Sequence record: PZ338878.1 | DNA from: a phage | DNA: 64,000 bases | Reading direction: 5' to 3' (one strand) | Shown: positions 14,858 through 57,491 of the stretch, piece after piece | How the letters are laid out: each line of letters opens with the position of its first letter | How positions within the stretch are numbered: position 1 is the first letter of the stretch | Translations under genes and position numbers: made by a program | The notes under the pieces: generated by a model | What the model was told of the DNA's origin: nothing | Seen by the model: only the letters and a program-made list of their open reading frames with translations | Database searches by the model: none

Positions 14858-15079
14858 ATGAAACAACATAATTTTTATTTTCGTTGCCGAGCCTGTAACA
14901 GACACTTGACTAATCATTCCCGTAGAGACAGGAATGGTAATATTCAAGAGTCGGATCTATGCTCGATTTGTACAAGTTTGGCATTCGATGACAGTCCCGA
15001 AAGGGTTTATCAACATCAAAGTGTAACTGATCTTCTTCTAAATTACACAACACCAGAGGAGGAATTAGATTTCACATAA
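14858..15079 (+). CDS. hypothetical zinc-ribbon protein (73 aa)
   Basis: CRAC...CSIC cysteine pairs. Confidence 0.35.
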   Translation: MKQHNFYFRCRACNRHLTNHSRRDRNGNIQESDLCSICTSLAFDDSPERVYQHQSVTDLLLNYTTPEEELDFT

Positions 15080-15092
15080 TTAAGGAAACAGT

Positions 15093-15203
15093 ATGTCTAC
15101 AGAAATTATTTTTGGCTTATCTGTTTTTATTGCTATTGTATCTTTTGTATGCGGTTATACACTAGGTTACAGATCAAGAAAAAATATTGTAAAAACTAGT
15201 TGA
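15093..15203 (+). CDS. small single-pass membrane peptide (36 aa, below ORF-track cutoff)
   Basis: AAGGA RBS then ATG; MSTEIIFGLSVFIAIVSFVCGYTLGY hydrophobic core. Confidence 0.25.
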   Translation: MSTEIIFGLSVFIAIVSFVCGYTLGYRSRKNIVKTS

Positions 15204-15229
15204 CAACATAGCTAGTTATTTGCTAAGAT
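15200..15229 (+). promoter_or_regulatory. sigma70-type promoter (TTGACA, 18 nt, TAAGAT)
   Basis: Perfect -35 and 5/6 -10, upstream of ORF 15260 and the tRNA array. Confidence 0.45.
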
Positions 15230-15259
15230 AAGCACAAGTTAAACAAAAAGGAGAAAACT

Positions 15260-15526
15260 ATGACAGAACGTACTTATGGTAAAGAATTGATTGAGAAGCA
15301 CGTATTGATTGATAATAAAGGTGGAGCAATCTTTATTTTTGAACCTGAATCAGTTCTTACTGAAAACGAAAATGGTAGCGTTAGCCTTAAAACAGAAAGT
15401 TTGGTAATTGACTTCCTTGCTCTTCTGGATGAAATGGGGCTTCCGCACGAAGAAGAAGCAGCTATTGCTTTGATTACAGTTCTTCTGGAGAAACGCGAAG
15501 CTGGTGAAATGACCCAGTATGCTTAA
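15260..15526 (+). CDS. hypothetical protein (88 aa)
   Basis: ORF with AAAGGAG RBS. Confidence 0.45.
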   Translation: MTERTYGKELIEKHVLIDNKGGAIFIFEPESVLTENENGSVSLKTESLVIDFLALLDEMGLPHEEEAAIALITVLLEKREAGEMTQYA

Positions 15527-15533
15527 TATTCAA

Positions 15534-15609
15534 GGTTCCATAGCTCACTGACGAGAGCGCACACCTCATAAGTGTCGAGGGCAGGGATTGTAACCCTGGG
15601 GAACCACCA
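15534..15609 (+). tRNA. tRNA-Met (anticodon CAT; Ile2 or initiator not excluded)
   Basis: 76 nt; acceptor GGTTCCA/GGGAACC (one 7:66 mismatch); anticodon loop CTCATAA; non-canonical T-loop ATTGTAA; CCA encoded. Confidence 0.5.
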
Positions 15610-15640
15610 TTTAAAAGGAGATGCTATGCATCTCCTATAT

Positions 15641-15726
15641 GCAAGTGTGGTGGAATTGGTGATACACATTGTGCTTAAAACGCAACGCTTAAATGATTGA
15701 GGGTTCGAATCCCTCCACTTGCACCA
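15641..15726 (+). tRNA. tRNA-Leu (anticodon TAA)
   Basis: 86 nt class II; acceptor GCAAGTG/CACTTGC; anticodon loop CTTAAAA; long variable arm; T-arm GAGGG-TTCGAAT-CCCTC; A73; CCA encoded. Confidence 0.7.
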
Positions 15727-15728
15727 AC

Positions 15729-15834
15729 GCCTAGTAGGGTATTTGGTAATTCCGAGGCCATCAAAGCCTGAAAAATATGTTAGACCGCTTTGTCTAACTA
15801 AATACGAAATATGGTTCGATTCCATAACTAGGCT
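15729..15834 (+). ncRNA. tRNA-like element, 106 nt, non-canonical (possible stable small RNA, pseudo-tRNA or suppressor-like)
   Basis: Perfect 7-bp acceptor pairing GCCTAGT/ACTAGGC and canonical T-arm TATGG-TTCGATT-CCATA, but a 40-nt internal region with a 7-bp hairpin (15779-15798); candidate anticodon loop CATCAAA; no CCA encoded. Confidence 0.3.
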
Positions 15835-15866
15835 TCAATTTAAATAATAATTTTAGTAAAAATATC

Positions 15867-15895
15867 TTGACATTCACTTAGTTTTTTGTTATAGT
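15867..15895 (+). promoter_or_regulatory. sigma70-type promoter inside the tRNA array (TTGACA, 17 nt, TGt-TATAGT)
   Basis: Perfect -35 plus TG-extended -10, about 12 nt upstream of the next tRNA-like gene. Confidence 0.5.
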
Positions 15896-15906
15896 TACTG
15901 TGAAAA

Positions 15907-15988
15907 CGGGGTGTATCTCACCTGACTTCTAATCAGGCGTTAACCGAGTAATTGGAGTATGCAGGTTCGAATCCTGTCACCCCGACCA
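15907..15988 (+). tRNA. tRNA-Arg (anticodon TCT)-like, non-canonical D region
   Basis: 82 nt; acceptor CGGGGTG/CACCCCG; canonical anticodon arm CCTGA-CTTCTAA-TCAGG; T-arm GCAGG-TTCGAAT-CCTGT; CCA encoded; only 5 nt where the D-arm should be and a 23-nt region before the T-arm. Confidence 0.45.
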
Positions 15989-16006
15989 AAAAGTTTTAAA
16001 AACTAC

Positions 16007-16036
16007 TTGACAAGCAAGATAGTTTTATGTTAGATT
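16007..16036 (+). promoter_or_regulatory. sigma70-type promoter inside the tRNA array (TTGACA, 18 nt, TGt-TAGATT)
   Basis: Perfect -35 plus TG-extended -10, about 15 nt upstream of tRNA-Ser. Confidence 0.5.
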
Positions 16037-16051
16037 TAAAGTATGATAACG

Positions 16052-16141
16052 GGAAGGTAGGGCGCAGCGGTGCGCAACCAGGTTTGAACCCTGGCCCATT
16101 GTAGCGATACGGTGATGGTTCGACTCCATTATCTTCCTCCA
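16052..16141 (+). tRNA. tRNA-Ser (anticodon TGA)
   Basis: 90 nt class II; acceptor GGAAGGT/ATCTTCC; anticodon arm CCAGG-TTTGAAC-CCTGG; 19-nt variable arm; T-arm GATGG-TTCGACT-CCATT; CCA encoded. Confidence 0.7.
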
Positions 16142-16159
16142 AATTCAACTAGGAGCTTT

Positions 16160-16312
16160 ATGAATTATAAAACTATTGGACAGGTTGTTACCGGAGTTAA
16201 GATTGTAGATAATAAAGTTGTTTATGAGTATTCTAATCTTCAACAATCTGAAGATGGTAAAAATATTCGTATGGTAAAAGCAGAACAAAAAGATTCCGGT
16301 TGTTTTGAATAA
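16160..16312 (+). CDS. small hypothetical protein (50 aa) between tRNA genes
   Basis: AGGAG RBS then ATG at 16160; the ORF-track start at 16112 lies inside tRNA-Ser. Confidence 0.3.
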   Translation: MNYKTIGQVVTGVKIVDNKVVYEYSNLQQSEDGKNIRMVKAEQKDSGCFE

Positions 16313-16320
16313 TTAAGAAC

Positions 16321-16406
16321 GGTAGATTGGTGAAATGGTAGCCACAACAGTTTGCTAAACTGTCGTCGGAAACGGCGTGTAGGTTCAAGTCCTACATCTA
16401 CCGCCA
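16321..16406 (+). tRNA. tRNA-Ser (anticodon GCT)
   Basis: 86 nt class II; acceptor GGTAGAT/ATCTACC; anticodon arm ACAGT-TTGCTAA-ACTGT; long variable arm; T-arm GTAGG-TTCAAGT-CCTAC; G73; CCA encoded. Confidence 0.7.
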
Positions 16407-16540
16407 AGTTATCTTTAATGTAGCTTGTAATCTTACTTTAATAGAGTAAACTTTCGGCAGATGGCCTCCACCATCTTACCGATACCCTAATACTTCATAG
16501 TCAAGTGCCGCAAACACTGGCTATTTTAAAGATAATTTAT

Positions 16541-16616
16541 ACATCGTTAGCTTAGTTGGTAGAGCAAGGGGCTTTTAACTCCAAGGTCGAAGGTTCGAAT
16601 CCTTCACGATGTACCA
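16541..16616 (+). tRNA. tRNA-Lys (anticodon TTT)
   Basis: 76 nt; acceptor ACATCGT/ACGATGT (A1-U72); D-arm GCTT-AGTTGGTA-GAGC; anticodon loop CTTTTAA; T-arm GAAGG-TTCGAAT-CCTTC; CCA encoded. Confidence 0.65.
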
Positions 16617-16621
16617 AACAC

Positions 16622-16708
16622 GTAGGTATCGCATAGCGGCAATTGCTGGAGACTGTAAATCTCCTGCCCTTCGGGGCTTCGTTGGTTCGAGTCCAACTAC
16701 CTGCACCA
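16622..16708 (+). tRNA. tRNA-Tyr (anticodon GTA)
   Basis: 87 nt class II; acceptor GTAGGTA/TACCTGC; anticodon arm GGAGA-CTGTAAA-TCTCC; 16-nt variable arm with TTCG loop; T-arm GTTGG-TTCGAGT-CCAAC; CCA encoded. Confidence 0.7.
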
Positions 16709-16715
16709 AATTAAA

Positions 16716-16800
16716 GATGGATTGGCCTAGTGGTTGGGCGACGGACTGTTAATCCGTGAACGAAAGTTCTAGCAAGGTTCAAATCCTTGATCCATCGCCA
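16716..16800 (+). tRNA. tRNA with Asn anticodon (GTT) but a class II-type long variable arm
   Basis: 85 nt; acceptor GATGGAT/ATCCATC; D-arm GCCT-AGTGGTT-GGGC; anticodon arm ACGGA-CTGTTAA-TCCGT (as E. coli tRNA-Asn, from memory); 15-nt variable arm with GAAC/GTTC stem; T-arm CAAGG-TTCAAAT-CCTTG; G73; CCA encoded. Confidence 0.55.
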
Positions 16801-16879
16801 AATAGTGCTTGTAGAGTTAATAGAAACCTCTAGAATTTTCTAGAATTGTAGGTATAAAATCCTACCAAGCAAATATTTT

Positions 16880-16954
16880 GCTCCTATCGTATAACGGCTA
16901 TTACGGTTGCCTTGTAAGCAACTTATCAGGGTTCGAGTCCTTGTGGGAGCACCA
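16880..16954 (+). tRNA. tRNA-Thr (anticodon TGT)
   Basis: 75 nt; acceptor GCTCCTA/TGGGAGC; anticodon arm GTTGC-CTTGTAA-GCAAC; T-arm CAGGG-TTCGAGT-CCTTG; CCA encoded. Confidence 0.7.
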
Positions 16955-16971
16955 ATTTTAACTCTAAAGGA

Positions 16972-54671: not shown

Positions 54672-57491
54672 ATGTATCCTATTCCTTTATTTATGTCAAC
54701 AACATCAGCTTCAGTAGTAACAGCTACATCTATAACCACTTCCTCTATTGGTATTGCAATAGTTGGTAGTAAAAAGCAACTGACATACACAGTTTCACCG
54801 GAAGATGGTGCGTTATTTGATATAGCTTTTTCATCTTCAGATAATACCAAAATGGTTATAGATAATAATGGTATGATGGAGTTTGTTGCCGAAGGTGGTT
54901 TTGATGCAATAATGACAGCTAAAAATAATTTAGGTGCTGTCTTAACTGATCAATCTGGTGGCTATGCTTCAGAATTAAGTGTGTACACTGAAAGTCTGTC
55001 TGCTATGGATGCAGGAACTACTCAACAATTGGTTGCTACAATCAGTCCAGAAGGTGCTAAAGACCTTCCAGACATGGTAATTACGTACACCACAACAGAT
55101 CCAGAAGTAGCTACTGTAAGTCCTACAGGATTAATAACTGCTCTTAAAGATGGCAGTTGCCGTATAGGTTGCACTGCAACTTATCAAGGAACAGTGGTGG
55201 CCTCTGATAGTTCTTATTTAGGTGTTAATGCTGTTCCTGTTATTTCTAATGTAACAGCCGTGGCAAACAGCTATGGAGACATTCGTGTTGCTTGGGATGT
55301 AGCTGATCCGCTAGATGGTGATACTTATACTGTAGAAGTATTAGATTTAAGTAATAACAGTGTCCAGTGGACTACAACAACCACGAATACTTACGCTTAC
55401 TTTGATATCTCTGACTCTATTCCTCTTTATGGGTTTGCTCCAACATACCTTAAAATTAGCGTTAAGAGCACCAAAGCAGCACCCGTTATCTTTAATAACT
55501 CAATAGCTACAGATGATTCATTCATTAAAGAAGTTATTGTCTTTGCTGGACAAGATAACGTAAATGCACACTTTACAGAACTATCTGGTGCAAATAAAGC
55601 AGCAATGAGTAGCACAACAGCCCGTAATGCATATGCTACGCAACGTGGTTTAGCAAATGCTGAAGTTCTCCCGTTAAATACAGCTTCTGGATCATCAGCA
55701 GCAGATAAATATGCTGACGATAAAGCTGGAACAGGTACACCAGACAACTACTGGTATGATCTGGATAACACAGCAGATGGGCCATGCTTAACTAACTTTA
55801 TCACTAAAGTCACACCTTATGCAAGTAAGGTTAAAGCGATTATTTGGGGACAAGGTGAAAATGATGCTGTATCAGCATCTTCAACTGTTGCAGGTAGATA
55901 CAGTAACACTACACGTTACCATGATGCTACGATAGCTATCTTTGATAAGATGCGTACAATAGTTCCTGCTTCTCAAGCAAAAATTGTTTGGCAGATCCTA
56001 GGACGTTCTTATTTATATGGTGTAGAAGTTAATGGTGTGGATTGGCAGAAATACAGAAATGTACAAAGAACCATCTCTACAGCACGTGACGATGTTATCA
56101 TTGGTTCTTGGGTGGATGGTGCTGAACGCTACAGTGGTTATGTTTATGAAGAAGGTATTGCTGGTCGTATCCATTATATTTCTTCTGTATACCAAACAGC
56201 AGCTACAAAACTTGCTAAATCAGCAGCAGACGGTACAGACCTAACATCAACGTCACCTGTTTGGGTTGATATGGCTGTTCCAACTGGAGCAACAGCTATT
56301 TCCCAATCTAATCAAGATATAATTTTAGCATGGGATGCTCAAGGTTATAGTAAACACTACTTCCGTAATATTAACGTCTTAACAGCATCTGTATTAACTG
56401 AACAAACCCTTAATACGAACAGTTATACGTTTACCTATGCAGATCAAGTAGAACAATATGGTTTTGCAGCAGGTACTACGGTATTTGATGTTGCATATTA
56501 TGACGAAGCAAATGATGTGTTATCTCCTTTAGTACGTTTTAATGTTAGCGTTACAGCAGGAAAAGTAGAAGATAAACCTGTCGTGATGGATTATGATTTG
56601 ACACAAGAAACTCTTCCATCAGATGTTAAGGTTAATGGTGGGAACTCTTTTGCTCGTGCTTCTGGAGATAAACTTGTAGCCACTAACACCTTGGTTGCTC
56701 CGTTGGAGTATGTTGGTACTACCCCTGTAGGTAGACGTGTAACAGCTAACACAGCTACACAAATTTTTGTCAACAACGCCTTAACAAGCGCAAGCCCGTG
56801 GGTAAAGACCAACTTAACTGTTGCAGCTTCATCTGATAACTCTCCGGCTGGAACTACTGCTAATGTATTCAAATTAACTCCGACTACAACCTCTGGTAGT
56901 CATATCTTAACTGCAACATATACTAACGCGTACAACATATCTGCCGGACGTAACTGGTCTGCCTCTGTTTTCTTGAAAGCGAACGGGATTACTAAGGCCA
57001 AACTAAGATTAAAAGCAGGAACTGAAGTTAATGAGGGTACTTTTGATTTAGCAGCAGGTACATTCGCAGGAAGTGAAGCTAATATTATATCTATGGGCAA
57101 CGGTTGGTATCGTGCTATTCTGCATAAAACAGGGATAGCCAAACAGTCCTCCATAAGTTTTGAAATAATTGCCTTGGATGCAACTGGTGCGGAGATTTTC
57201 GCTGGAGATGGTACTAGTAACCTTGCAGTTTGGTTGCCACAGCTTGAAGGTGCTTCTACAGGAGACACATCAAAAGCTGGATCGCCTTATGTCTGCACAT
57301 ATCCTGGAAATTTAGGAGGAGTATCCTTCACTATACCAAGGAACGGACATACTGGTGTGGATGTTTACTATTCCAACGGAGACGTTGTTCGTGACGTATT
57401 CTCTGGTACGGCATCTACTTGGACAATAAACTACTCCAGCTTGTACGATTGGGGATCAGTCTTTATTACAGGTTTGAAATATTACGACTAA
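54672..57491 (+). CDS. tail protein with Ig-like segments and a SASA/SGNH-type carbohydrate esterase-like domain
   Basis: VIVFAGQDNVNAHF (GQxN block) and IWGQGENDA (QGExD block) resemble sialate O-acetylesterase motifs, with Asp in place of the usual Ser. Confidence 0.45.
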   Translation: MYPIPLFMSTTSASVVTATSITTSSIGIAIVGSKKQLTYTVSPEDGALFDIAFSSSDNTKMVIDNNGMMEFVAEGGFDAIMTAKNNLGAVLTDQSGGYASELSVYTESLSAMDAGTTQQLVATISPEGAKDLPDMVITYTTTDPEVATVSPTGLITALKDGSCRIGCTATYQGTVVASDSSYLGVNAVPVISNVTAVANSYGDIRVAWDVADPLDGDTYTVEVLDLSNNSVQWTTTTTNTYAYFDISDSIPLYGFAPTYLKISVKSTKAAPVIFNNSIATDDSFIKEVIVFAGQDNVNAHFTELSGANKAAMSSTTARNAYATQRGLANAEVLPLNTASGSSAADKYADDKAGTGTPDNYWYDLDNTADGPCLTNFITKVTPYASKVKAIIWGQGENDAVSASSTVAGRYSNTTRYHDATIAIFDKMRTIVPASQAKIVWQILGRSYLYGVEVNGVDWQKYRNVQRTISTARDDVIIGSWVDGAERYSGYVYEEGIAGRIHYISSVYQTAATKLAKSAADGTDLTSTSPVWVDMAVPTGATAISQSNQDIILAWDAQGYSKHYFRNINVLTASVLTEQTLNTNSYTFTYADQVEQYGFAAGTTVFDVAYYDEANDVLSPLVRFNVSVTAGKVEDKPVVMDYDLTQETLPSDVKVNGGNSFARASGDKLVATNTLVAPLEYVGTTPVGRRVTANTATQIFVNNALTSASPWVKTNLTVAASSDNSPAGTTANVFKLTPTTTSGSHILTATYTNAYNISAGRNWSASVFLKANGITKAKLRLKAGTEVNEGTFDLAAGTFAGSEANIISMGNGWYRAILHKTGIAKQSSISFEIIALDATGAEIFAGDGTSNLAVWLPQLEGASTGDTSKAGSPYVCTYPGNLGGVSFTIPRNGHTGVDVYYSNGDVVRDVFSGTASTWTINYSSLYDWGSVFITGLKYYD

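What the first reader, a model, noticed from the sequence alone, without database searches (positions are those of the whole stretch)
15907..15988. Further non-canonical tRNA-like genes: Arg(TCT)-like without a D-arm and Trp(CCA)-like with an enlarged D region
Element 15907-15988 has a perfect acceptor stem, a textbook Arg anticodon arm, a normal T-arm and CCA, yet only 5 nt where the D-arm belongs and 23 nt between anticodon and T arms. Element 18247-18329 has a Trp-type anticodon arm and T-arm but about 7 extra nt in the D region and an imperfect acceptor stem. With the 106-nt element, three of 19 array members deviate from the cloverleaf, which is unlikely to be sequencing noise.
Basis: seen in the sequence. 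Interest (0 to 1): 0.5.

Follow-up and report, generated by a model that had tools for sequence, protein, structure and literature searches.

The report
Phage arginine tRNA with rearranged D-arm
Both flagged elements are real, conserved tRNA genes of a phi92-like E. coli phage, and the arginine one belongs to a widespread phage-only family whose D-arm parts sit on either side of the anticodon arm, a layout I could not find described.

Summary
The window is a phi92-like E. coli myophage (Justusliebigvirus) with a 19-member tRNA array.

Element 15907-15988 passes the Rfam tRNA threshold (40 bits; threshold 29), but only with the D-arm deleted and a 20-nt insertion. It is not simply D-armless. 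Across 126 distinct homologues from phages and metagenomes, three bases after U8-A9-U always pair with three bases inside the "variable" region, with many compensatory changes. That makes a D-stem that encloses the anticodon arm. The segment that follows, UAAUUGGAGUAU, reads like a tRNA-Arg D-loop, including the ArgRS determinant A20, and runs straight into the T-stem. Every family member has an arginine anticodon (UCU, CCU, UCG or ACG). The gene encodes CCA, has its own near-consensus promoter, and is the only Arg tRNA in the array of an AGA-rich phage. Best reading: a functional tRNA-Arg(UCU) with a locally permuted D domain. Charging is not shown.

Element 18247-18329 is a conserved tRNA-Trp(CCA). 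It has a 9-nt A/U-rich insertion before the D-stem and a 5-nt D-loop.

Seven full-text searches found no description of the Arg architecture.

The parts
15867..15895 (+). sigma-70-type promoter-like site (TTGACA, 17 nt, TG-n-TATAGT) ending 11 nt before the Arg gene
   Evidence: Best promoter match in 15000-18700: 11 of 12 positions plus an extended -10 TG. This is a consensus match only.
15907..15988 (+). tRNA-Arg(UCU) gene with a permuted D domain, including the encoded CCA
   Evidence: Rfam tRNA model 40 bits. Family model R1 97.9 bits, against 25 or less for every other tRNA in the window.
15907..15913 (+). acceptor stem, 5' strand (pairs with 15978-15984)
   Evidence: 99.4% of cells paired; all 7 pairs show changes on both sides across 49 sequences.
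15914..15916 (+). U8-A9-U junction
   Evidence: UAU in 123 of the 132 distinct family sequences parsed at fixed spacing; UAC in 4.
15917..15920 (+). CUCA. CUC (15917-19) is the strand that pairs with GAG 15946-48 and takes the place of D-stem positions 22-25
   Evidence: The three pairs are standard in 126 of 126 sequences, with 4 pair types at each of the second and third positions.
15921..15937 (+). anticodon arm (5 bp plus CUUCUAA; anticodon UCU at 15928-15930)
   Evidence: All 5 pairs show changes on both sides. The loop has U33, C35 and A37.
15938..15944 (+). 7-nt connector CGUUAAC (family consensus C-R-U-Y-A-A-N) that bulges between the anticodon stem and the long-range helix
   Evidence: Conserved in the family, but only 2-3 nt long in variants L077:2689-2763, L188 and L203.
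15945..15948 (+). CGAG. GAG (15946-48) is the strand that takes the place of D-stem positions 10-13
   Evidence: Covaries with 15917-19.
15949..15960 (+). UAAUUGGAGUAU, the D-loop equivalent (proposed A14 A15 U16 U17 G18 G19 A20 ... A21 U48) that leads directly into the T-stem
   Evidence: Still conserved when the search was anchored on the 5' half only. Matches the D-loops of canonical phage tRNA-Arg genes, such as AAUUGGAGA and AAUGGAUA. The position assignments are inference.
15961..15977 (+). T arm (GCAGG UUCGAAU CCUGU)
   Evidence: 98.8% of cells paired. The loop fits the canonical UUCRANY.
15978..15988 (+). acceptor 3' strand, discriminator A73 (15985) and encoded CCA
   Evidence: The discriminator is A or G in 121 of 126 sequences. 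CCA is encoded in 53 of 76 distinct genes.
18247..18329 (+). non-canonical tRNA-Trp(CCA) gene, including the encoded CCA (anticodon at 18287-18289)
   Evidence: Eight distinct homologues. Compensatory changes occur in the acceptor (pairs 3-70 and 6-67), the D-stem (2 pairs) and the anticodon stem. It has A1-U72, G73 and the CCA anticodon.
18256..18264 (+). 9-nt A/U-rich insertion GAUUUAAAA between position 9 and the D-stem
   Evidence: Present at 7-9 nt in all 8 homologues (consensus roughly G.UUUAAN).
18265..18277 (+). D hairpin GAGU-AUGGU-ACUC (4 bp with a 5-nt loop)
   Evidence: 100% of cells paired; 2 of the 4 pairs have compensatory changes.

Best explanation
Element 15907-15988 is a working phage tRNA-Arg(UCU) that decodes AGA/AGG. 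Its D domain is locally permuted.

The chain runs in this order: acceptor 5' strand, U8-A9-U, a 3-4-nt strand that acts as the D-stem 3' strand, and the anticodon arm. Next come a 7-nt connector, the complementary strand acting as the D-stem 5' strand, and a D-loop-like segment (A14 A15 Y U G18 G19 A20 .. A21 U48). The chain ends with the T arm, the acceptor 3' strand, A73 and CCA.

The D-stem is therefore an extension of the anticodon helix. The molecule is a three-way junction rather than a four-way cloverleaf. The residues that build the L-shaped core and elbow (U8, A14, A15/U48, G18G19, T-loop) are all present, as is the ArgRS identity set (A20, C35, U36, A/G73).

Shown here: the long-range helix, the conserved motifs, restriction to arginine anticodons, restriction to phages, and the genomic context.

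Inferred: the L-shaped fold, charging by host ArgRS, and use on the ribosome.

The selective advantage over a normal tRNA-Arg is unknown. One possibility is escape from nucleases that read the D-arm or core of host tRNA.

Element 18247-18329 is most likely a functional tRNA-Trp(CCA). Its D region carries a 9-nt insertion 5' of the D-stem and has a minimal 5-nt D-loop.
For: Helix. In 49 aligned distinct sequences, and again in 126 parsed ones, the three pairs are standard in every sequence. The second pair is U-A 76, G-C 32, A-U 16, C-G 2. The third pair is C-G 104, G-C 12, U-A 9, U-G 1. The rival local hairpin is paired in only 69.8% of cells, with almost no compensation.

Stack length. The fourth pair of the helix and the first pair of the anticodon stem are mostly alternatives: 86 sequences have only the latter, 22 only the former, 5 both. 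This keeps the stack length constant, as with the 26.44 layer of normal tRNAs.

D-loop equivalent. It stays conserved when the search is anchored elsewhere and equals the D-loops of canonical phage tRNA-Arg genes.

Arginine identity. A search that did not constrain the anticodon returned only Arg anticodons: UCU 118, CCU 4, ACG 2, UCG 2. The discriminator is A or G in 121 of 126. The arginine identity set is A20, C35, U/G36 and A/G73 (PMC9976931).

Family separation. Members score 81-100 bits with model R1 and ordinary tRNAs score 35 or less.

Context. 98 of 109 loci lie among canonical tRNA genes. Only 2 of the 109 also hold a true canonical tRNA-Arg(UCU). The 20-tRNA array of Felixounavirus warpig has no other Arg tRNA, and the 64-kb window has none either. 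AGA makes up 28% of Arg codons, 10.9 per 1000, in window ORFs. The gene has its own promoter-like site and encoded CCA.

Distribution. Found in Justusliebigvirus, Felixounavirus, Asteriusvirus, Mydovirus, Streptomyces phages and many environmental viral contigs. There were only 4 hits in one-genome-per-species data covering 185,579 species, all on MAG contigs. There were none in 5,426 complete E. coli genomes.

Trp element.
Against: There is no expression, end-mapping, charging or structural data, so the three-dimensional fold and the position assignments (A14, A15/U48, A20, A21) are inferences from sequence similarity. The long-range helix is only 3-4 bp, and neither RNAfold nor RNAalifold predicts it from energy.

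The invariance of UAA.UGGAGUAU and the T arm in alignment A1 is partly forced by the search pattern. The independent 5'-anchored scan relieves this only in part.

Six of 76 distinct family members lack CCA and have a 12-15 bp extension of the acceptor helix. That would block charging unless the RNA is processed. One of them sits next to a normal tRNA-Arg(UCU).

For the Trp element, the acceptor 4-69 and T-stem 49-65 positions are mismatched in 5 of 8 homologues. The fold is no more stable than shuffled sequence.
Confidence: 0.7

Rival explanations
1. The Arg element is a truly D-armless tRNA, like mitochondrial tRNA-Ser(AGN), carrying a class-II-style variable arm. In this reading the 23 nt fold into their own hairpin (CCGA-GUAA-UUGG) and the 5 nt after U8-A9 are just a connector.
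For: This is the minimum-free-energy and centroid fold of the window sequence. It is also what the Rfam alignment implies: D-arm deleted and a 20-nt variable insertion.
Against: Across 49 homologues that hairpin is paired in only 69.8% of cells. Its four pairs are broken in 11, 17, 5 and 24 sequences, with a single double change. The competing long-range helix is never broken and covaries.
Confidence: 0.05
2. The Arg element is a tRNA mimic that is not used for translation. For example, it could be a decoy or sponge for a host or rival-phage nuclease or sensor that recognises tRNA-Arg(UCU), or a Y-RNA-like module.
For: Phage tRNAs are known counter-measures to tRNA-targeting defences (PMC10264068, PMC11464382 and PMC11555353, listed). 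The anticodon loop CUUCUAA is identical to the host's (table in PMC12482277), as a decoy would need. Six of 76 members have no CCA and a closed 12-15 bp helix extension, and one of these lies beside a canonical tRNA-Arg(UCU). A Ro-like protein gene lies 1.4 kb from the Francob copy.
Against: The window copy and 53 of 76 relatives encode CCA with an unpaired A/G73. The complete ArgRS identity set is kept. Anticodons vary only among arginine ones (UCU, CCU, UCG, ACG), which fits decoding demand better than mimicry of a single target. It is usually the only Arg(UCU) gene in arrays of AGA-rich phages. No Y-RNA family matched.
Confidence: 0.15
3. One or both elements are decaying tRNA pseudogenes carried along in the array.
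For: Both fail default ARAGORN. The Trp element is below the Rfam threshold, has mismatches in the acceptor and T stems, and has unremarkable folding energy. Truncated or broken copies of the Arg type do exist elsewhere (L087, L226).
Against: For Arg: 93 distinct acceptor stems, all paired, in 126 sequences from unrelated phages and habitats, with invariant functional positions. For Trp: compensatory changes in three helices across homologues only about 74-81% identical. The insertion is retained at similar length and composition in all eight.
Confidence: 0.03

Closest known systems
Canonical bacterial and phage tRNA-Arg(UCU) (E. coli argU type; canonical phage copies such as L039:1522-1598)
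   Same: 7-bp acceptor, a 5-bp anticodon stem with loop CUUCUAA, T arm with UUCGAAU/UUCGAGU, A/G73, CCA, a D-loop sequence AAYUGGA with A20, and a location inside phage tRNA arrays.
   Different: The order of segments. The strand equivalent to 10-13 plus the D-loop lies 3' of the anticodon arm instead of 5' of it. There is no D hairpin and no ordinary 4-5-nt variable loop, so the molecule is a three-way junction.
[quoted passage not shown]
   Same: No D hairpin between the acceptor and anticodon stems. They read AGN codons. They are functional despite the missing arm (PMC4013460).
   Different: The mitochondrial tRNAs are short, lack the G18G19/T-loop elbow contacts, are flexible, and work with co-evolved synthetases and EF-Tu. 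The phage RNA is full length (79 nt plus CCA). It keeps the GG motif, a canonical T-loop and a covarying D-stem substitute, and it must work with ordinary bacterial machinery.
Class II tRNAs (Leu, Ser, Tyr, Sec) and allo-tRNAs with long variable arms
   Same: A long stretch (23 nt) lies between the anticodon and T stems. The Rfam model treats it as a variable-region insertion.
   Different: Class II tRNAs keep a normal D-arm and their variable region forms its own hairpin. Here the local hairpin is not conserved, and the acceptor/T stems are the normal 7/5 rather than 8/4 or 9/3 (PMC5389517, abstract listed).
Circularly permuted tRNA genes of the red alga Cyanidioschyzon merolae
   Same: tRNA parts occur in a rearranged order along the gene.
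   Different: In the alga the whole gene is permuted (3' half before 5' half) and processing through a circular intermediate restores a normal cloverleaf (my own knowledge; not checked here). In the phage gene the acceptor 5' and 3' strands are in normal order and only the D domain is rearranged, so the mature RNA itself would be non-canonical.
Bacterial Y RNA (YrlA) tRNA-like domain
   Same: A tRNA-like module whose acceptor-type helix continues into a long stem, as in the six extended-stem family members.
   Different: No Rfam Y-RNA match. The phage elements carry full arginine anticodon loops. The window copy has a free A73-CCA end and no stem extension.

Membership tests
tRNA (Rfam RF00005) | Score at or above the curated gathering threshold (29 bits) | tested here: met
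   Arg element: 40.0 bits. The Trp element scores 22.9 bits and does not meet it.
tRNA (Rfam RF00005) | 7-bp acceptor stem, 5-bp anticodon stem with a 7-nt loop (U33, purine 37), and 5-bp T stem with a UUCRANY loop | tested here: met
   Sequence and covariation for both elements.
tRNA (Rfam RF00005) | Local D-arm hairpin between positions 9 and 26 | tested here: not met
   Arg element: 15 model positions are replaced by 4 nt, and ARAGORN finds no cloverleaf. A D-stem substitute is made by long-range pairing. The Trp element has a D hairpin, but displaced by a 9-nt insertion and with a 5-nt loop.
tRNA (functional definition) | Processed to a discrete RNA, aminoacylated and used by the ribosome | not testable with these tools
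   No expression or charging data were available.
tRNA-Arg (E. coli-type arginine identity) | C35 and U36 or G36 | tested here: met
   C35 is invariant. Anticodons are UCU 118, CCU 4, ACG 2 and UCG 2 of 126. Identity set from PMC9976931.
tRNA-Arg (E. coli-type arginine identity) | Discriminator A73 or G73 | tested here: met
   A in the window copy (15985). A or G in 121 of 126.
tRNA-Arg (E. coli-type arginine identity) | A20 in the D-loop variable pocket | tested here: inconclusive
   An A directly follows the GG motif (15956), as in canonical tRNA-Arg D-loops, and is nearly invariant. Whether it occupies the position-20 pocket in three dimensions cannot be tested here.
Mitochondrial-type D-arm-lacking tRNA | Short connector in place of the D-arm, with loss of the D-loop/T-loop elbow residues | tested here: not met
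   The GG motif, a canonical T-loop and a covarying D-stem substitute are all present. ARAGORN mitochondrial mode finds only a spurious 62-nt call that lacks the T arm, at other boundaries.
Class II (long variable arm) tRNA | The variable region forms its own conserved hairpin, and the D-arm is normal | tested here: not met
   The local hairpin is 69.8% paired without compensation, and there is no D hairpin.
Y RNA / YrlA tRNA-like RNAs | Match to the Rfam Y-RNA models; a long terminal stem with a Ro-binding site | tested here: not met
   Only the tRNA model matches, both in the window and in six extended-stem relatives. The window copy has no flank pairing.

The most novel reading that the evidence does not exclude
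This is a previously undescribed structural class of elongator tRNA, confined to phages. It is a three-way-junction tRNA-Arg whose D-stem is formed around the anticodon arm and whose D-loop strand feeds directly into the T-stem. It would be fully active with ordinary bacterial ArgRS, EF-Tu and ribosomes. It would be kept because the rearranged core escapes host or rival tRNA-directed nucleases or sensors that read the D-arm side of tRNA-Arg.
Probability: 0.35. Interest if true: 0.85.

Novelty: new variant of a known kind. Interest (0 to 1): 0.75.

Why it matters
Outside organelles, elongator tRNAs are regarded as invariably cloverleaf-shaped, and gene finders are built on that assumption.

This family would show that the L-shaped core can be assembled from a different strand order and still serve standard bacterial translation. 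That bears on how tRNA architecture evolves and on the design of orthogonal tRNAs.

It also exposes a systematic annotation gap. The gene is unannotated in most phage records. In the records inspected it is labelled 'Undet' in one phage and tRNA-Leu in another, and an endonuclease CDS overlaps it in a third. Phages such as the Felix O1 relatives are therefore recorded as having no tRNA-Arg.

If the rearrangement protects the tRNA from tRNA-targeting immunity, it would be a structural evasion route distinct from the anticodon-loop mutations already described.

Tried and rejected
- ARAGORN in default, relaxed-threshold, intron and mitochondrial modes gave no acceptable cloverleaf for the Arg element. 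The relaxed call was on the wrong strand, and the mitochondrial call lacked the T arm and sat at other boundaries. For the Trp element the only call was a weak one with a poor acceptor stem.
- Rfam at a permissive E-value returned only tRNA-clan matches, with no Y RNA, tmRNA or riboswitch. The RyhB-like match at 18495-18549 is just the terminator hairpin.
- I considered whether the 'anticodon arm' is really a D-arm and the true anticodon lies in the 23 nt. I rejected this because that stretch has no covarying local helix.
- The local GNRA-capped hairpin in the 23 nt was rejected on covariation.
- Rfam's alternative acceptor for the Trp element (18266-72) was rejected: 73% paired with no compensation.
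- The 5'-anchored IMG/VR pattern returned many A/T-rich chance matches inside coding sequence, which had to be filtered by eye.
- A looser anticodon-free signature was not run, because my own rough estimate put the expected chance matches in the thousands.
- The searches of representative bacterial genomes and of E. coli genomes were essentially empty.
- Seven full-text literature searches and four papers read gave no description of this architecture. The library lacks most subscription-journal papers, so absence is not proof.
- RNAalifold does not predict the long-range helix. It rests on covariation only.
Full report
**Source and setting.** The window is a phi92-like Escherichia coli myophage (Stephanstirmvirinae, Justusliebigvirus). 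The tRNA region 15500-18450 is 99.4% identical to phage pEC-M2929-1AR.1 and 97-98% identical to dozens of other isolates. ARAGORN with default settings finds 16 tRNA genes on the + strand between 15534 and 18410. The count of 19 array members, three of them deviant, is correct.

**Checking the Arg element.** Read directly from the sequence, the element is as follows.
- Acceptor CGGGGUG (15907-13).
- UAU (15914-16) and CUCA (15917-20).
- Anticodon arm CCUGA-CUUCUAA-UCAGG (15921-37, anticodon UCU at 15928-30).
- CGUUAAC (15938-44) and CGAG (15945-48).
- UAAUUGGAGUAU (15949-60).
- T arm GCAGG-UUCGAAU-CCUGU (15961-77).
- Acceptor 3' strand CACCCCG (15978-84), A73 (15985) and CCA (15986-88).

The Rfam tRNA model matches at 40.0 bits, above its threshold of 29. 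It does so only by deleting 15 D-arm positions (4 nt remain) and inserting 20 nt in the variable region. ARAGORN finds no cloverleaf on this strand in relaxed, intron or mitochondrial mode.

**Relatives of the Arg element.** A BLAST search of phage genomes found full-length homologues at 81-87% identity in these groups:
- Felixounavirus;
- the jumbo phage 121Q group (Asteriusvirus);
- Klebsiella Mydovirus;
- Streptomyces phage Francob.

In most records shown the gene is unannotated. Of those I inspected, PATM labels it 'tRNA-Undet', 121Q labels it 'tRNA-Leu(taa)', and in warpig the start of an HNH endonuclease CDS overlaps it.

I then scanned with a pattern taken only from the 3' part of the 23-nt stretch plus the T arm, which puts no constraint on the anticodon. 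It gave only 4 hits in one genome for each of 185,579 bacterial and archaeal species, all on MAG contigs. There was no match in 5,426 complete E. coli genomes. The family is therefore essentially phage-borne and is found in gut, freshwater, marine and soil samples.

**Structure from covariation.** I aligned 49 distinct sequences (A1) and later parsed 126 distinct sequences carrying 93 different acceptor stems.
- The acceptor, anticodon and T stems covary heavily.
- The decisive result is a fourth helix. The three bases after U8-A9-U (CUC in the window, 15917-19) pair with three bases inside the 'variable' stretch (GAG, 15946-48).
- The first of these pairs is always C-G. The second is U-A 76, G-C 32, A-U 16, C-G 2. 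The third is C-G 104, G-C 12, U-A 9, U-G 1. None is broken in any of the 126 sequences.
- The competing local hairpin CCGA-GUAA-UUGG is the minimum-energy fold of the window sequence. It is paired in only 69.8% of cells, is broken in up to 24 of 49 sequences at a single pair, and shows essentially no compensation.
- RNAalifold does not predict the long-range helix. It is short, and it rests on covariation rather than energy.
- A fourth pair of this helix and the first pair of the anticodon stem are mostly alternatives: 86 sequences have only the latter, 22 only the former, 5 both. The stack keeps a constant length with one unpaired layer, much like the 26.44 layer of ordinary tRNAs.

**What the remaining conserved residues look like.** Directly 3' of the second strand comes U-A-A-(Y)-U-G-G-A-G-U-A-U, and then the T-stem. 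A second scan was anchored only on the 5' half of the gene. The true family members it found still carried this segment, with only minor variants such as UAAGCGGAGUAU, UAAUGGACGUAU and UAACGGAGUAU.

Canonical tRNA-Arg genes from the same collection of loci have D-loops such as AAUGGAUA, AACUGGAUA and AAUUGGAGA. That is the same A14-R15-(Y)-Y-G18-G19-A20 motif.

My reading, which is inference, is that the strand equivalent to D-stem 10-13 and the whole D-loop have moved to the 3' side of the anticodon arm. In canonical numbering the chain would run 1-7, 8, 9, 22-25, (26), 27-43, connector, 10-13, 14-21, 48, 49-76. The last U before the T-stem could form the Levitt pair with A15, and the A two positions before it could act as A21. 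In normal tRNA these positions lie in adjacent layers of the core (established tRNA structure; my own knowledge). The new connections 9-to-22, 43-to-10 and 21-to-48 are therefore geometrically plausible.

Natural variants with a connector of only 2-3 nt (L077:2689-2763 with anticodon ACG, L188 and L203) show that the 7-nt connector C-R-U-Y-A-A-N is not needed for the topology.

**Arginine specificity.** The collecting pattern did not constrain the anticodon, yet every parsable member reads arginine codons: UCU 118, CCU 4, ACG 2, UCG 2. The few sequences that failed the fixed-length parse are mostly the same gene with a different connector length or a UAC junction. They again carry UCU. The rest are two copies cut by contig ends, one with a broken 3' end and one chimera (L173).
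- C35 is invariant.
- Position 36 is U or G.
- The discriminator is A or G in 121 of 126.
- An A follows the GG motif.

The published arginine identity set is A20, C35, U/G36 and A/G73, with A20 the main determinant for E. coli ArgRS (PMC9976931).

A covariance model built from A1 with the new structure (R1) scores the window copy at 97.9 bits and family members at 81-100 bits. Ordinary tRNAs score 35 bits or less. Two divergent variants fall in between at 53-57 bits, and both are Arg.

**Context that points to function.**
- 98 of 109 loci holding the gene also hold canonical tRNA genes, with a median of 5 per locus.
- ARAGORN called tRNA-Arg(tct) in 7 of these loci. Four calls were the permuted gene itself with extended boundaries, and one was a divergent variant. 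Only two loci (L039, L072) have a separate canonical tRNA-Arg(UCU).
- The Felixounavirus warpig array of 20 annotated tRNAs contains no Arg tRNA other than this unannotated one. The 64-kb window has none either.
- In window ORFs of 150 aa or more, AGA is 28.4% of arginine codons at 10.9 per 1000. AGA is rare in E. coli (my own knowledge).
- The best sigma-70-type promoter match in the array region (TTGACA, 17 nt, TATAGT with an extended -10 TG; 11 of 12) ends 11 nt before the first base of the gene.
- CCA is encoded in the window copy and in 53 of 76 distinct relatives.

**Best explanation for the Arg element.** It is a working tRNA-Arg(UCU) that supplies AGA/AGG decoding. It has a locally permuted D domain that keeps the parts needed for the L-shape and for ArgRS. 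I put this at about 0.7. Why phages keep this form instead of a normal tRNA-Arg is unknown. Escape from nucleases or sensors that read the D-arm side of tRNA is attractive, given current work on phage tRNAs and tRNA-targeting defence (papers listed). Nothing here tests that idea.

**Caveats and rivals.**
- Nothing shows expression, end maturation, charging or fold.
- Six of 76 distinct relatives (L022, L012, L009, L039, L052, L028) lack CCA, and their flanks continue the acceptor helix for 12-15 more base pairs with no free discriminator. Canonical tRNAs in the same arrays encode CCA and have no such extension. One of the six lies beside a normal tRNA-Arg(UCU). These may be precursors with an RNase III-type processing stem, or closed tRNA mimics. 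They keep a decoy or non-translational reading alive at about 0.15.
- A genuinely D-armless tRNA with a variable hairpin is disfavoured by covariation (about 0.05).
- A pseudogene is very unlikely for the Arg element.

**The Trp element.** The layout is as follows.
- Acceptor AGCCGGG (18247-53) and UA.
- GAUUUAAAA (18256-64).
- D hairpin GAGU-AUGGU-ACUC (18265-77), then AA.
- Anticodon arm UAUGG-CUCCAAA-CCAUA (18280-96, anticodon CCA at 18287-89).
- Variable loop GAUCA.
- T arm AGGGG-UUCGAUU-CCUCA.
- Acceptor 3' strand CCUUGCU (18319-25), G73 and CCA.

Rfam scores it at 22.9 bits, below threshold, and only by using AGUAUGG (18266-72) as the acceptor and dropping the D-arm.

Homologues are few. 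They occur in Justusliebigvirus, Klebsiella phage KP13-26 and relatives, Hafnia Ounavirinae, the LPML1 record, Pectobacterium POP18 and one IMG/VR contig.
- compensatory changes at acceptor pairs 3-70 (C-G to G-C) and 6-67 (G-C to A-U);
- two of the four D-stem pairs changed on both sides, with 100% pairing;
- two anticodon-stem pairs changed on both sides.

Rfam's alternative acceptor is 73% paired with no compensation. More precisely, a 7-9-nt A/U-rich insertion sits between position 9 and the D-stem, and the D-loop is only 5 nt (AUGGY).

A1-U72, G73 and the CCA anticodon match E. coli tRNA-Trp (my own knowledge). It is the only Trp tRNA in the window. Its acceptor 4-69 and T-stem 49-65 positions are mismatched in 5 of 8 homologues, and its folding energy is unremarkable (z = 0.35). 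I consider it probably functional, but with less confidence than the Arg element.

Both deviant tRNAs have an R-UU(U)AA-N linker immediately 5' of the strand that serves as the D-stem 5' strand (Arg: CGUUAAC-CGAG-UAAUUGG; Trp: GAUUUAAAA-GAGU-AUGG). I cannot say whether this is a shared structural module or coincidence.

**Comparison with known systems.**
- Closest in function is ordinary tRNA-Arg(UCU).
- Closest in missing a D hairpin are the metazoan mitochondrial tRNA-Ser(AGN). These are short and flexible, lack elbow contacts, and depend on co-evolved partners (PMC4013460).
- The element is not a class II tRNA, because its local hairpin is not conserved.
- It is not an allo-tRNA, because its acceptor/T stems are 7/5.
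- It is not a circularly permuted gene of the red-alga type, because its acceptor strands are in normal order.
- It is not a Y RNA, because no model matches.

Seven full-text searches, a 2020 review of non-canonical tRNAs (no mention of phage) and a 2025 study of Ounavirinae phage tRNAs gave no description of this architecture. The library omits most subscription-journal papers, so prior description elsewhere cannot be excluded.

**Verdict.** I rate the novelty as a new variant of a known kind and the interest at 0.75.

Noticed in passing
window 15729-15834 (+): The third deviant array member is 106 nt, with a 7-bp acceptor, a normal T arm and a variable region of about 36 nt containing a 6-7-bp hairpin (15779-15798). 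Its anticodon loop reads CAUCAAA, which is UCA with A rather than U at position 33. The Rfam tRNA-Sec model gives 29.4 bits (threshold 47). ARAGORN intron mode instead calls Asn(GTT) with an 18-nt intron. The homologue in Erwinia phage Hena1 is annotated tRNA-sup(tca), and comparison with it shows compensatory changes in the acceptor and anticodon stems. The element is absent from phage Paula. Only 3 of 42 long window ORFs end in TGA.
   Followed up: partly
L022:3702-3780, L012:2635-2713, L009:10457-10535, L039:1614-1692(-), L052:7571-7649, L028:955-1033: A subgroup of permuted tRNA-Arg genes lacks an encoded CCA. Their flanks extend the acceptor helix by 12-15 bp with no free discriminator. 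Neighbouring canonical tRNAs do not show this, and L039 also has a normal tRNA-Arg(UCU) next door. These may be processing stems or uncharged mimics.
   Followed up: partly
L077:2689-2763; L053:13348-13426; L188 and L203 (metagenome): These are divergent variants of the same architecture. Some have a connector of only 2-3 nt or a longer D-loop-like segment, and one has anticodon ACG. They score 53-57 bits with the family model.
   Followed up: partly
L173 (- strand, near 727) and L087:6111-6183(-): L173 is a type-II-like tRNA with a normal D-arm, but its 3' part (GUAAUGGAGUAU plus the T arm) matches the permuted family, so it may be a chimera. L087 holds a 5' half of a permuted gene that breaks off inside the D-loop-like segment.
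   Followed up: no
L003 / L267 (Escherichia phage warpig, record 54908-54991); L004 (121Q); L002 (vB_Eco_PATM): Annotation problems. In warpig the HNH endonuclease CDS start overlaps the 3' half of the unannotated tRNA-Arg. 121Q labels its copy tRNA-Leu(taa), and PATM labels it tRNA-Undet. As a result Felixounavirus arrays appear to have no tRNA-Arg.
   Followed up: yes
phage records MG065639/MG065645/MG065656 ('Campylobacter phage A150/A145/C3') and OK283618 ('Listeria phage LPML1'): These records match enterobacterial phages: about 98% identity to Justusliebigvirus for the first three, and an Ounavirinae classification for LPML1. The host labels look doubtful.
   Followed up: no
L006 (Streptomyces phage Francob), locus 1-147 and 1495-1572: A gene annotated 'Ro-like RNA binding protein' lies about 1.4 kb upstream of this phage's permuted tRNA-Arg. 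No link was tested.
   Followed up: no
window 15907-15988 and 18247-18329: Both deviant tRNAs carry an A/U-rich linker with a UUAA core immediately 5' of the D-stem 5'-type strand (CGUUAAC-CGAG-UAAUUGG versus GAUUUAAAA-GAGU-AUGG). IMG/VR contig L041 also carries both gene types.
   Followed up: partly
window 18495-18549 (+): A weak RyhB-model match (28.5 bits, threshold 55) coincides with an intrinsic-terminator-like hairpin at 18524-18542 that closes the tRNA array. It is most likely only a terminator.
   Followed up: no
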